DNA from: Escherichia phage vB_EcoM_CRJP21
Sequence record: OQ708376.1
Strand: one strand, 5' to 3'
DNA length: 64,000 nucleotides
Shown here: positions 48,436-52,135 of the stretch, piece by piece
Layout: every line of letters begins with the position of its first letter
Position numbering within the stretch: position 1 is the first letter of the stretch
Notes under the pieces: generated by a model
What the model was told of the DNA's origin: nothing
The model's database searches: none
The model's input: only the letters and a program-made list of their open reading frames with translations
Position numbers and translations under genes: made by a program

Positions 48436-48792
48436 ATGAAAACAAAAATCTTTCTACCACAAACCATGATGGAACTGTGTGAACATGATGCAGGGGATGT
48501 TGTCACTATTAGTGGTTCCTGGAATGAGAGTACTGAAGACTTTATGCCAGATGAGGTATATTCTGTTGTTTTAAATGAACAGTACAATACAAGCCGTTGG
48601 AATGCACAGTACAATCTAGTTTTTCTTGACAATAACAATGAAAAGTACTATCATTGTACGTATGAACGAGGTCTGACAGAACGTAACTACACAACTCCTT
48701 TCTGTGATGAAATGGATGGTGTAAAGTGCTATGAAGTTTATGTTCGTCAGGTTCCAGTTGTTACTTACAAAACCGAGTGGGATTATCTGTAA
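48436..48792 (+). CDS. hypothetical Cys-rich protein, tandem paralog 2 of 2
   Basis: MKTKIFLPQTMMELCEH ... KYYHCTYER. Confidence 0.5.
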   Translation: MKTKIFLPQTMMELCEHDAGDVVTISGSWNESTEDFMPDEVYSVVLNEQYNTSRWNAQYNLVFLDNNNEKYYHCTYERGLTERNYTTPFCDEMDGVKCYEVYVRQVPVVTYKTEWDYL

Positions 48793-49190
48793 TGCTTAAA
48801 GATTTAGATTTTTCAAATTTAGAGATCATCAGTGCAGTGAAGAATATTACTGATATGGATGATGAAAAAGGTGTAATGGTAACTATCACTTTCGTAAAGG
48901 AAGAGGATAGCTATAAGCATCTTACTGGAATTGAAGAACTAATTCATAAAACCAATCTTGAGAATGATGGTAAACTCATCAAGCTTCAGGCTTCATATAC
49001 GCAAAAAACGTCAAATTTTATAGACCTAAATAATGTAGTCAAGGTGGTATACAATCATCCTGATCACACATATAGGAACACGACAAGAAATGAAAATGTT
49101 GCTAACGATTCGAATATTATCGAAGATGTTGAATTCATAAACACAATTTTTGATCGTTGTTCTAAGGATTTAAAAAAAGTATACATGTAA
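48792..49190 (+). CDS. hypothetical protein
   Basis: ATG 48792 overlapping previous stop. Confidence 0.45.
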   Translation: MLKDLDFSNLEIISAVKNITDMDDEKGVMVTITFVKEEDSYKHLTGIEELIHKTNLENDGKLIKLQASYTQKTSNFIDLNNVVKVVYNHPDHTYRNTTRNENVANDSNIIEDVEFINTIFDRCSKDLKKVYM

Positions 49191-49191
49191 T

Positions 49192-49219
49192 GGGACATTA
49201 TATGTTCCAATGATATAAT
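49192..49219 (+). promoter_or_regulatory. promoter GGGACA-N13-TGATATAAT
   Basis: same architecture as 25071 promoter; drives the ORF-poor island. Confidence 0.5.
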
Positions 49220-49496
49220 GTATATAGAAAATGACAACGGACATTGAAAAATGGACACTGAGAACCTACTTCTCTTGAAAATGTAAAGGATAGATGAGCT
49301 TTACCGTTGTAGCGAACAGCAGAAGAAACCTGTTAGAGTACTGGCATTTAAACAAACACGATGTAAGACCACGAATCACGGCGACACGGCTGTATAAAGA
49401 ACTCCGATAAGCATACAGAGAGTTCCTAGATAGATGTATAAGGTTCGCACCTTACCAGATTTGCTAAGGGAGTTTAAGAATAGCGGACGCAATTTT

Positions 49497-49525
49497 ACAA
49501 GAAAGTTGCGTCCAAAATTTGAGAA
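49497..49525 (+). repeat. direct repeat copy 1 (29 bp)
   Basis: ACAAGAAAGTTGCGTCCAAAATTTGAGAA; copy 2 at 49649-49677 differs at 2 positions. Confidence 0.7.
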
Positions 49526-49648
49526 CAGGTACTACTTTGATCGAATAGAGTTAGTACTGAGTGCTGTTGATGAAAAGACCAGCGACCGTTGCATATGACT
49601 GCGATAGAGAGAAACCGAGCAACCCGCTTTCGCTCTCTAAATTTTGGT

Positions 49649-49677
49649 ACAAGAAAGATCCGTCCAAAATTTGAGAA
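49649..49677 (+). repeat. direct repeat copy 2 (29 bp)
   Basis: ACAAGAAAGATCCGTCCAAAATTTGAGAA. Confidence 0.7.
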
Positions 49678-49713
49678 ATTCGCAATTCGATAATATCCGA
49701 TGCCATCATCGTC

Positions 49714-49740
49714 AAGAGAGACTTAATTGTCTCTTTTTTA
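49714..49740 (+). terminator. intrinsic terminator
   Basis: GAGAGAC-ttaatt-GTCTCT then TTTTTT. Confidence 0.6.
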
Positions 49741-49878
49741 TTATCTTCATTCCCCTGCGGGGGATGTAATAGTCCTCAACAAATCCCGTCAAGTTTTTAA
49801 AGTACATTATCATTTTCAGAAGGAACTAGTTTACGAAGTAAACGCAGTGACTTCTTGAGTTACGAGAGAACGAAGTGA

Positions 49879-50307
49879 ATGAGTAACACAACGAAAATAT
49901 CCGATAAATCTGAATTAACACAAATGTTATTCAAAGAATATTTTGAGTTCCAGATAAAAGACGAACATCAATTACCACAGCAATATTTGAAAAGAATTAA
50001 AGATCCGTCAGTAATTACTAAAGAAACTAATTTTTATAATAGTATTTTAGATTTCGTTAAATCAGTTCATACAACAAGACCTATTGTAGTTTTGTTTTTT
50101 GATAAATCTATTCCTTTAGTAGTTCCTGAAAATGTATTTTTTATCTCAGAAACTGATTTAAATAATCAAAGTACTGTAAGTAGATTAAGAAATTGCTTAC
50201 TTGTAGTATGTGATTCTTCTTTGTATATTAATAGAATACTATGGGATAGAAGTAAACGCAATACAGTTTCGGAAATGAATCCTGAAATTACCTTTATTAT
50301 TAACTAA
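49879..50307 (+). CDS. hypothetical protein
   Basis: 142-aa ORF, ATG 49879. Confidence 0.5.
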   Translation: MSNTTKISDKSELTQMLFKEYFEFQIKDEHQLPQQYLKRIKDPSVITKETNFYNSILDFVKSVHTTRPIVVLFFDKSIPLVVPENVFFISETDLNNQSTVSRLRNCLLVVCDSSLYINRILWDRSKRNTVSEMNPEITFIIN

Positions 50308-50339
50308 ATAATAAGAGAATAACTCTAAGGAGAGATATT

Positions 50340-50780
50340 ATGGAAGATATTAATGATTTACGACACGTAATGGACTTTATCGGAAGTACTGAAGAAGATA
50401 ATTCATATGATGAAGTACTATTAACTTTTATTGAAAATAGTTTGTTTTTGAGTTCTGCTGCACATAACTGGCACTTACAATGTCATTTTTATACAAAGCA
50501 TTTACAATTAGATGAACTATATAAAGAATTACCAGAATATGTAGACGCATTTGTTGAAGGTATCATGAATAATCGTGGTGCTTTACAAGTTGGGACTGGT
50601 AATAGTTATCGTTTTACACCAATTGAAGATTGTGTACCAATTCTTGAAGAATATGTTGAGCAATGCAGAGCAATTCATGATATGCTTGAAGAATCGGGTG
50701 ATTACGGCAGTGTAAACACATTAGAAGATATTATGAGTTTTGTTGAAGGCGTACTTTACAAACTTAAAGTTTTACAATAA
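50340..50780 (+). CDS. Dps/ferritin-like protein
   Basis: LTFIENSLFLSSAAHNWHLQCHFYTKHLQLDELYKEL ... RGALQVGT aligns with E. coli Dps helix A/B region. Confidence 0.65.
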   Translation: MEDINDLRHVMDFIGSTEEDNSYDEVLLTFIENSLFLSSAAHNWHLQCHFYTKHLQLDELYKELPEYVDAFVEGIMNNRGALQVGTGNSYRFTPIEDCVPILEEYVEQCRAIHDMLEESGDYGSVNTLEDIMSFVEGVLYKLKVLQ

Positions 50781-50787
50781 ACTATAT

Positions 50788-50816
50788 GGAGAGTCGTTAT
50801 GACTCTCCTTTTCTTT
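50788..50816 (+). terminator. intrinsic terminator
   Basis: GGAGAGTC-gttat-GACTCTCC then TTTTCTTTT. Confidence 0.65.
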
Positions 50817-50827
50817 TGGAGAAAATA

Positions 50828-51181
50828 ATGAGCGATTACCGAGTTACAACAGGTCTGATGGCACGATTAGTTGAAGCTGTACCTGAAGATGATTATGAAG
50901 CTATTTCAGATCGTCTATTTGACGCAGATACTAATCTCCATATTACATATGATGGTACACTTGTCTTCAGTACTGATCTTGATGTTCCTGCGTATGAATT
51001 TGAGATTTCTTTTGGTAACAACTTAACCCCTGAAGAATTCGCTAGAAAATGTGAGCGTGAAGGGCTGTGCATTGACGTTAGTTCAGTTCAGCCATATACA
51101 TCTCTGTGGTGTGATAATGCTGATAGCCCAATGTCAATGACATCTTTACAGGATTTTGTAAATGCAAATCAAAAAGATTAA
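50828..51181 (+). CDS. hypothetical acidic protein
   Basis: ATG 50828 after GGAG; track start 50786 lies inside terminator. Confidence 0.5.
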   Translation: MSDYRVTTGLMARLVEAVPEDDYEAISDRLFDADTNLHITYDGTLVFSTDLDVPAYEFEISFGNNLTPEEFARKCEREGLCIDVSSVQPYTSLWCDNADSPMSMTSLQDFVNANQKD

Positions 51182-51554
51182 ATTCCACCAGCATTGTTCT
51201 ATACATGAATGTGATGATTGTGGTATACAAATGAGTGACATTTATACTGTTTCATGTAAAGGTTTCAAATTCTCTCACGGTGAACCTGCTTATTGTTATG
51301 GTACAGAAGAAGGTGATATCGAAGTAGTACTGAAAGAATTGTTCCAGTACTTGCAAAGTGTAGGTCATGATGTTACAATACCCACATATTATGAAGATGA
51401 TTATGATGCACATGTAGAAGAAAATACATATTATAATCAATTCGTTTATGGTAATGGTTTTATCACATACCTACATGAGAATGGTATTGAGGTAAAAACT
51501 AAGTACACCAGTGATGATTATGATGATGATAATTCTATGGAGATTGAAGATTGA
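51162..51554 (+). CDS. hypothetical acidic protein
   Basis: 130-aa ORF. Confidence 0.45.
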   Translation: MQIKKIKFHQHCSIHECDDCGIQMSDIYTVSCKGFKFSHGEPAYCYGTEEGDIEVVLKELFQYLQSVGHDVTIPTYYEDDYDAHVEENTYYNQFVYGNGFITYLHENGIEVKTKYTSDDYDDDNSMEIED

Positions 51555-52135
51555 AAGCAAAAGACTTGGCAGCACTGTTGATGCAGAATCCTGAAATGGA
51601 AGTGTATCATGAGCACATGCACATTGATGACATGTGTGACGCTTACTATTCACCAGAAAATGTGTCTGGTATTGAAATCACCCCTAGTGGAGTATTCATC
51701 AGTAGTGAACGTATTGATTTCAATTCCCAGCAAGAAATCAAAACTCCACATAATAAACCTCGCATTGGTGCTATTGACCTAGTATTTCATCAGGACCGTT
51801 TGGTGGAATATGATGAAGACGATGGTACTACCCAAACTGATGTTGAGAATGTTGTTTTTCGTTTTTATAATGCATACGAAGACCCAACTACTGGAGAAGA
51901 TTTCTTCCGTGAGCTATTAGAGGATGGAGAAGTTTATGGTCAGGATGGTACGGTTTTTGTACTGGACCCTAACTATGAGCCTGATCACAATACATGGCAA
52001 TTCTATACACCAGAAGATGTAATGGAAGTTAAAGTACTTATGGATATTGACGATAAATGGAATCCTATGTATACTTCAATGACATATGAAGAAGCCAAAG
52101 AATATTTCGTTTCTAAACTAAACATTACAAAATAA
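51551..52135 (+). CDS. hypothetical acidic protein
   Basis: 194-aa ORF. Confidence 0.5.
   Translation: MKAKDLAALLMQNPEMEVYHEHMHIDDMCDAYYSPENVSGIEITPSGVFISSERIDFNSQQEIKTPHNKPRIGAIDLVFHQDRLVEYDEDDGTTQTDVENVVFRFYNAYEDPTTGEDFFRELLEDGEVYGQDGTVFVLDPNYEPDHNTWQFYTPEDVMEVKVLMDIDDKWNPMYTSMTYEEAKEYFVSKLNITK

What the first reader, a model, noticed from the sequence alone, without database searches (positions are those of the whole stretch)
50340..50780. Dps/ferritin-like protein
Residues 25-83 align closely with the E. coli Dps helix A/B region (AHNWHLQCHFYTKH vs AHWNMRGANFIAVH; RGALQVGT vs GGVALGT). Dps sequesters iron and protects DNA; a phage copy may protect replicating DNA from oxidative or Fenton-type damage or modulate host iron.
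Basis: partly seen in the sequence, partly recalled or inferred. Interest (0 to 1): 0.5.

Follow-up and report, generated by a model that had tools for sequence, protein, structure and literature searches.

The report
Phage Dps-like mini-ferritin (DUF5856)
This jumbo-phage gene encodes a small four-helix-bundle protein distantly related to the bacterial iron-detoxifying protein Dps; the resemblance is real but already recorded in public annotations, and no member of the family has been tested biochemically.

Summary

The four primary Dps ferroxidase ligands are essentially invariant in 147 distant relatives: H45, H54, D69 and E73. The protein is acidic (pI 4.3) and has no lysine-rich tail, so its database names "DNA-binding" and "transcriptional regulator" have no support.

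T4 gene rI.-1 is a member of the family. Orthologues were detected by mass spectrometry in purified virions of phAPEC6 and CBB, and other phages fuse the domain to prohead-protease-like proteins.

Verdict: correct but ordinary, because near-identical proteins are already annotated Dps-like or ferritin-like. The open question is whether it is a packaged capsid cargo.

Side observation: a conserved, multi-copy, structured RNA of about 500 nt with no Rfam match lies just upstream (49210-49770).

The parts
50340..50780 (+). CDS, 146 aa, 16.9 kDa, pI 4.3. DUF5856-family Dps-like four-helix-bundle protein, with predicted helices A 22-47, B 51-79, C 95-119 and D 122-144 and a disordered acidic N-terminus (residues 1-19).
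50327..50334 (+). Shine-Dalgarno sequence AAGGAGAG, 5 nt upstream of the ATG.
   Evidence: read directly from the sequence
50472..50558 (+). Segment encoding the putative inter-subunit ferroxidase ligands: H45 (50472-74), H54 (50499-501), D58 (50511-13, second shell, variable in the family), D69 (50544-46) and E73 (50556-58).
   Evidence: Invariant in 147/147, 147/147, 146/147 and 147/147 distant relatives for H45, H54, D69 and E73. Aligned to the Dps ferroxidase ligands by HMMER.
50788..50818 (+). Terminator-like hairpin (9-bp stem, 5 G-C pairs) followed by a T-run, 8 nt after the stop codon. The mechanically listed downstream ORF start at 50786 lies inside it, so the real start of the next gene is probably ATG 50828.
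   Evidence: pattern match only
49879..50307 (+). Upstream 142-aa ORF (phrog_35272, unknown function), 32 nt from the Dps-like gene and probably co-transcribed with it. The small-ORF-plus-DUF5856 arrangement is also present in CBB (CBB_168/169).
49714..49745 (+). Terminator-like hairpin plus T-run that would close the preceding transcription unit (the structured RNA element) and mark the 5' boundary of the two-gene unit.

Best explanation
The gene encodes a phage-lineage mini-ferritin, a Dps homologue of the DUF5856 family. Shown: it folds as a ferritin-type four-helix bundle, and the four primary Dps ferroxidase ligands are essentially invariant across the family. Inferred: two subunits pair through antiparallel B helices, so that H45 and H54 (with D58 nearby) of one chain face D69 and E73 of the other, giving two di-iron sites per dimer. 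The dimers probably assemble into a Dps-like 12-mer cage. Fe(II) is oxidised, probably by H2O2 as in Dps, and stored as ferric mineral, which suppresses Fenton chemistry around phage DNA and phage metallo-enzymes. The protein is strongly acidic and lacks a basic tail, so it most likely does not bind DNA. Some of the protein travels with the virion.
Confidence: 0.6

Rival explanations
1. Packaged capsid cargo (compatible with the ferroxidase chemistry, but with a different site of action). The Dps-like protein is deliberately loaded into the HK97-fold head. It may be part of, or sit next to, the uncharacterised inner body. There it would protect the densely packed 350-kb genome from iron and peroxide damage outside the cell, or be ejected with the DNA. 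This would parallel ferritin-like cargo in encapsulins.
For: phAPEC6 gp306c (99% identical) was detected in purified virions with 6 peptides and 65.8% coverage, among the highest of 62 proteins. CBB_169 (57% identical, different genus and host) was detected in CsCl-purified virions with 3 peptides and 26.3% coverage. Phage A4 and the CBB GenBank record call it 'structural protein'. The metagenomic protein P0084 fuses DUF5856 to a domain homologous to T1-like 'prohead core protein serine protease' and is encoded two small genes after the portal. BFVD contains 'Prohead protease' proteins that include a Dps-like fold. phAPEC6 and 121Q have an inner body of unknown composition.
Against: The phAPEC6 list also contains thymidylate synthase, a RecA-like protein, SSB and topoisomerase, so abundant soluble proteins co-purify. 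A roughly 200-kDa, possibly iron-loaded cage could co-sediment with phage. The orthologue is absent from the main text of the RaK2 proteome paper, and the CBB supplement appears to flag only the CBB mass spectrometry, not GAP32's or RaK2's. The gene lies among small early-type genes, far from the head module. Another long family member, P0046, is not in a head module. To my knowledge T4 RI.-1 has not been reported as a T4 head protein.
Confidence: 0.35
2. Accessory regulator of lysis inhibition, as proposed for T4 RI.-1: a non-enzymatic partner that stabilises RIII and the RI-holin complex.
For: T4 rI.-1 is a true DUF5856 member (114.5 bits; hhalign 98.7%). Plasmid overexpression of RI.-1 prolonged lysis inhibition of T4D and acted synergistically with RIII. 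The RaK2 authors made this link.
Against: The evidence comes from overexpression only and is indirect. RaK2-like phages lack rI, rIII and the T holin. Invariance of four metal-ligand residues across very different phages is not explained by an adaptor role. A protective anti-oxidant effect would also delay the collapse of infected cells, so the T4 phenotype fits the main explanation.
Confidence: 0.07
3. Ferritin-fold protein with different chemistry: binding another metal (Mn, Zn, Cu), acting as a peroxidase or nuclease as reported for the Dps-like PA4880, or a purely structural helical bundle.
Against: Sequence profiles pick Dps specifically and align ligand to ligand. The His2/Asp/Glu set is the Dps iron site.
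Confidence: 0.12
4. Starvation-inducible transcriptional regulator or DNA-binding protein, as named in PHROGs and RefSeq.
For: Only the transferred names.
Against: There is no DNA-binding domain hit. The pI is 4.3, with 28 acidic and 8 basic residues, and the N-terminal 25 residues carry 9 acidic and 1 basic residue. [quoted passage not shown]
Confidence: 0.03

Closest known systems
Bacterial Dps mini-ferritins (e.g. S. aureus Dps 2d5k, B. anthracis Dlp-2 1jig, L. innocua Dps 1qgh, E. coli Dps 1dps)
   Same: Ferritin-type four-helix bundle of about 150 aa. The same four primary ferroxidase ligands are in the same helices, with the same H-to-D (15 residues) and D-x3-E spacing on helix B. The start of helix D is similarly acidic.
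   Different: Only about 15-23% identity. Below the curated Ferritin and Dps thresholds. The A-B loop is three residues shorter. The Trp sits before rather than after the first His. The second-shell Asp is variable. No B-C helix in the model. The N-terminus is acidic rather than basic. Found only in phages in these searches, and detected in virions.
Pfam DUF5856 / PHROG 858, including phage T4 RI.-1 (MobD.6)
   Same: Full-length membership: 98.7 bits here and 114.5 bits for T4 RI.-1. The same invariant H, H, D, E, Y-K set. Thymidine kinase lies nearby in T4, A4 and CBB.
   Different: The jumbo-phage subgroup has an extra conserved acidic N-terminal segment (R8 and D12 invariant among close relatives) that T4 RI.-1 lacks. 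T4's gene sits in the rI lysis-inhibition operon, which Rak2-like phages do not have.
Ferritin-like cargo of encapsulins (from general knowledge, not tested here)
   Same: A ferritin-superfamily iron oxidase enclosed in an HK97-fold shell would be the same design, if packaging is real.
   Different: Encapsulated ferritins are a different branch of the superfamily and are loaded by short targeting peptides. No such peptide or loading mechanism was shown here, and packaging itself is unproven.
Classical ferritin and bacterioferritin
   Different: Their di-iron site lies inside one subunit and uses Glu and ExxH motifs on helix pairs A/B and C/D. This family has no conserved ligands on helices C/D.

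Membership tests
Pfam DUF5856 (PF19174) | Score above the curated gathering threshold (34.6 bits) | tested here: met
   98.7 bits, E = 4e-28, full-length match 1-94/94.
Dps (mini-ferritin) | Four-helix bundle with a long B-C crossover | tested here: met
Dps (mini-ferritin) | Inter-subunit ferroxidase ligands: His (helix A), His (helix B), and Asp and Glu (helix B of the partner subunit) | tested here: met
   H45, H54, D69 and E73 align to the Dps ligands and are invariant in 146-147 of 147 relatives. This is tested at sequence level only. Site geometry was not testable.
Dps (mini-ferritin) | Curated sequence-model thresholds (Pfam Ferritin PF00210 gathering score 24.5 bits; NCBIfam Dps equivalog 114 bits) | tested here: not met
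   18.3 bits and 15.4 bits respectively.
Dps (mini-ferritin) | Conserved Trp immediately after the first ferroxidase His, and a second-shell Asp four residues after the second His | tested here: not met
   The residue after H45 is Leu (127/147), with a Trp at position 44 in 70/147. D58 is kept in only 59/147.
Dps (mini-ferritin) | Short helix in the B-C loop at the two-fold interface | tested here: inconclusive
   Residues 80-94 are modelled as coil at pLDDT about 70.
Dps (mini-ferritin) | Dodecameric hollow cage with 23 symmetry, iron oxidation and iron storage | not testable with these tools
   Only monomer prediction was available, and there is no biochemistry.
DNA-binding Dps (E. coli type) | Lys/Arg-rich flexible terminal tail | tested here: not met
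   Residues 1-25 carry 9 acidic and 1 basic residue. Whole-protein pI is 4.3.
Ferritin / bacterioferritin | Intra-subunit di-iron centre with Glu and ExxH motifs on helix pairs A/B and C/D | tested here: not met
   There are no conserved acidic or His ligands on helices C/D. The only invariants there are Y140 and K141.
T4 lysis-inhibition module | Co-occurrence with rI, rIII and the t holin | not tested
   Not examined in this window. The RaK2 authors report these genes absent from RaK2.

The most novel reading that the evidence does not exclude
DUF5856 proteins are Dps-type ferroxidase cages that are deliberately packaged inside HK97-fold phage heads. In Rak2-like jumbo phages they would be free subunits, and in other phages they would be fusions to the prohead protease or scaffold. 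That would make them a viral counterpart of ferritin-loaded encapsulins, guarding the packaged genome or the first minutes of infection against iron and peroxide damage, and perhaps contributing to the unidentified inner body of 121Q and phAPEC6.
Probability: 0.3. Interest if true: 0.7.

Novelty: already known. Interest (0 to 1): 0.33.

Why it matters
As an annotation it adds little. Proteins 99% identical are already labelled Dps-like, ferritin-like or DUF5856 in GenBank and RefSeq, and the CBB genome paper lists 'Ferritin-like superfamily' for the orthologue.

Three points here go beyond the existing annotations. First, the full Dps ferroxidase ligand set is invariant across a large, purely phage family that includes T4 rI.-1, which argues for real metal chemistry rather than a decayed fold. 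Second, the widely propagated names 'transcriptional regulator' and 'DNA-binding protein' are unsupported. Third, two independent virion proteomes and the prohead-protease fusions raise the testable idea that phages carry an iron-detoxifying cage inside the capsid. If that is true, it bears on phage particle stability, on iron carried by phage particles, and on the evolutionary link between phage capsids and encapsulins.

Tried and rejected
- **Direct BLASTP to E. coli Dps:** no meaningful alignment, so the claim had to be tested with profiles.
- **Literature:** a search for DUF5856 returned nothing. A search for jumbo phage plus Dps/ferritin returned only bacterial Dps papers. A search for 'starvation-inducible' plus Rak2 returned nothing.
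- **Other libraries:** NCBIfam gave only a far sub-threshold Dps hit. The PADLOC defence library gave no hit for this gene or its upstream partner.
- **Neighbouring genes:** all belong to unknown PHROGs, and Pfam finds only DUF7325 for ORF 48777-49190, so there is no functional guilt by association.
- **T4-type late promoter:** TATAAATA is not enriched in the window and is absent near the gene. Sigma-70-like matches around the gene are no more frequent than in shuffles.
- **C-terminal extensions of the 200-390 aa relatives and the 620-830 aa fusions:** no Pfam or PHROG identity. P0151 lies on a contig too short to be informative, and P0046 sits among small genes near a sigma factor rather than in a head module.
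- **'Transcriptional regulator':** rejected on composition and the absence of any DNA-binding domain.
- **Lysis-inhibition role:** considered and ranked low.
- **Dimer or dodecamer prediction:** not possible with the monomer-only structure tool and its restriction on input sequences.

Full report
**The object.** The window is about 96% identical at the nucleotide level to Asteriusvirus jumbo coliphages (121Q, PBECO4, phAPEC6, slurp01). It encodes 146 aa and is preceded by AAGGAGAG. All larger ORFs in the window are on the + strand, and no tRNA genes were found. A terminator-like hairpin with a T-run follows the stop codon at 50788-50808, and a similar one lies at 49714-49737. Together they bracket a likely two-gene unit: ORF 49879-50307 plus this gene. 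These are pattern matches, not shown function. The mechanically listed start of the next ORF (50786) lies inside the hairpin, so ATG 50828 is the more plausible start.

**Family assignment.**
- Pfam places the protein in DUF5856 at 98.7 bits against a cut-off of 34.6. The Ferritin model scores 18.3 bits against a cut-off of 24.5.
- PHROG 858 matches at 5e-35.
- The NCBIfam Dps equivalog scores 15 bits against a cut-off of 114.
- The single sequence finds only Dps proteins among PDB sequences, but weakly, at E = 3e-4 to 0.3.
- A profile of 23 close homologues still finds only Dps.
- A 46-sequence profile covering distant relatives raises the hits to 7e-9 (S. aureus Dps), 1.6e-6 (Dlp-2), 2e-6 (MrgA) and 3e-6 (L. 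innocua Dps).

So the homology to Dps is genuine but remote.

**Ferroxidase ligands.** In the 23 close relatives, H42, W44, H45, H54, D58, D69 and E73 are invariant. A full scan of 1.84 billion representative proteins found 767 family members at E <= 1e-3. When 149 of the best 150 hits were aligned to the family HMM, the residues were kept as follows:

| Residue | Kept in distant relatives |
|---|---|
| H45 | 147/147 |
| H54 | 147/147 |
| D69 | 146/147 |
| E73 | 147/147 |
| Y61 | 145/147 |
| Y140 | 144/148 |
| H42 | 92/128 |
| D58 | 59/147 |
| W44 | 70/147 |

HMMER aligns H45 to the first Dps ferroxidase His (the H of the Dps 'HW' motif), with a three-residue insertion in the Dps A-B loop. It aligns H54, D69 and E73 to the other three ligands.

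All invariant polar residues lie on helices A and B. None lies on helices C or D, which rules out a ferritin/bacterioferritin-type site inside one subunit. H54 and D69 are 15 residues apart on a single helix, so they can only share a metal site across a two-fold dimer. That is the Dps arrangement. This last step is inference.

**DNA binding.** The protein is 16.9 kDa with pI 4.3, 28 acidic residues and 8 basic residues. Its first 25 residues carry nine acidic and one basic residue. It has no equivalent of the lysine-rich tail that E. coli Dps uses to bind DNA (established knowledge). The database names 'starvation-inducible DNA-binding protein' and 'transcriptional regulator' are name transfers with no support.

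**What is already known.**
- Proteins 99.3% identical occur in more than 20 deposited phage genomes.
- 121Q gp518 has been annotated 'starvation-inducible DNA-binding protein'.
- Munch and SE_PL call the protein 'ferritin-like', Turkey5 calls it 'DpsA', and the K64-1 RefSeq record calls it 'DUF5856 family protein'.
- The CBB genome paper's supplement lists 'Ferritin-like superfamily (IPR009078)' for CBB_169.
- RaK2's authors linked gp015 to Aeh1 RI.-1.
- I confirmed that T4 rI.-1 itself is a DUF5856 member (114.5 bits; hhalign 98.7%) and keeps all the ligands.

The only experiments on the family are plasmid overexpression studies. In them, RI.-1 prolonged T4 lysis inhibition and acted synergistically with RIII. 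That result is indirect, and a protective anti-oxidant role would explain it equally well. Rak2-like phages lack rI, rIII and the T holin.

**Virion association.**
- phAPEC6 gp306c is the orthologue. It appears in the published virion proteome with 6 unique peptides and 65.8% coverage, among the highest of 62 proteins.
- CBB_169 is 57% identical and comes from another genus and host. It was detected in CsCl-purified virions with 3 peptides and 26.3% coverage.
- Phage A4 and the CBB GenBank record call the protein 'structural protein'.
- The metagenomic protein P0084 carries a DUF5856 domain behind a domain homologous to the 'prohead core protein serine protease' of T1-like phages. It is encoded just after the portal gene.
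- BFVD contains 'Prohead protease' proteins that include a Dps-like fold.
- phAPEC6 and 121Q have an inner body of unknown composition.

There is evidence against true packaging. The phAPEC6 list also contains thymidylate synthase, a RecA-like protein, SSB and topoisomerase, so abundant soluble proteins co-purify. The orthologue is absent from the main text of the RaK2 proteome paper, and the CBB supplement appears to flag only the CBB mass spectrometry, not GAP32's or RaK2's. The gene sits among small genes of unknown function. I put true packaging at about 0.3-0.35.

**Most likely mechanism.** The protein is a Dps-type mini-ferritin. Dimers would form two inter-subunit di-iron sites, and the dimers would probably assemble into a 12-mer cage that oxidises Fe(II) and stores Fe(III). 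That would limit Fenton damage in the infected cell and possibly inside the particle, without binding DNA. Fold, family membership and ligand conservation are shown here. Dimer geometry, cage assembly, iron chemistry and the site of action are inferred.

**Verdict.** The residual interest lies in the untested packaging idea and in the fact that T4 rI.-1 belongs to the same metal-site family.

**Side observation.** Immediately upstream, at about 49210-49770 (+), lies an ORF-less element with higher GC than the window (39% vs 33.5%). It has a conserved extended -10 box, a terminator hairpin and a second 3' hairpin.
- It occurs in 3-5 copies per genome in every Rak2-like genus sampled, almost always in unannotated gaps: 71 records and 249 places (loci).
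- Seven divergent copies give a consensus structure of 71 pairs, 34 of which show compensatory double changes. These include long-range helices.
- 96% of cells are paired, against 38-50% when partners are slid. There are 34 double-change pairs, against 3-9 in the slid controls, and 0 of 500 shuffles reach the observed values. One caveat applies: the structure was derived from the same alignment.
- Rfam 15 has no match for it.
- G-U pairs in conserved helices favour the + strand.

This looks like an undescribed structured RNA and may deserve more attention than the gene that was flagged.

Noticed in passing
window 49210-49770 (+); related copies in L010:1250-1800, L011:270-900, L012:270-900, L013:270-930, L014:380-960, L002:1860-2440: Conserved, ORF-less, structured element of about 500 nt with its own extended -10 box (49192-49219) and terminator hairpin (49714-49737). 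It is present in 3-5 copies per genome in all Rak2-like jumbo phages (71 records, 249 places). 34 of 71 predicted base pairs show compensatory changes, 96% of cells are paired versus 38-50% in slid controls, and there is no Rfam match. It is probably an undescribed multi-copy phage ncRNA.
   Followed up: partly
window 49496-49525 and 49648-49677: 30-nt direct repeat (TACAAGAAAG.T.CGTCCAAAATTTGAGAA, 93% identical) inside the RNA element. The second copy is conserved in CBB, XbC2 and Munch, while the first lies in a segment that several copies lack.
   Followed up: partly
window about 50828 (junction); L003:1534-2159: Most relatives (phAPEC6, 121Q and others) carry an extra 626-bp segment here that encodes a protein of about 205 aa (121Q gp519). 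Its N-terminus resembles window ORF 51551-52135, so it is a paralogue. This phage lacks the segment, and UE-S1 is colinear with the window.
   Followed up: partly
window 50786-51181: The mechanically listed ORF start (ATG 50786) lies inside the terminator hairpin of the Dps-like gene. The likely true start is ATG 50828 (MSDYRV..., 117 aa, phrog_10749), preceded by GGAG.
   Followed up: partly
L009:1320-1706 (phage T4 rI.-1): T4 gene rI.-1 (MobD.6), so far discussed only as a lysis-inhibition accessory gene, is a DUF5856 member that keeps all the Dps-type ferroxidase ligands. Thymidine kinase lies close to the DUF5856 gene in T4, A4 and CBB.
   Followed up: yes
P0046, P0054, P0079 (200-390 aa); P0151, P0159 (620-830 aa); P0069: Family members with long extensions of unknown identity: C-terminal domains with no Pfam or PHROG match, Q-rich linkers in the very long forms, and one DUF3008-DUF5856 fusion. 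A free-standing DUF3008 gene lies near the DUF5856 gene in L007.
   Followed up: partly
L005:3568-3786: The metagenomic phage contig that carries the prohead-protease-like/DUF5856 fusion also encodes an Acb2/Tad1-hairpin (anti-CBASS/anti-Thoeris sponge) family protein.
   Followed up: no
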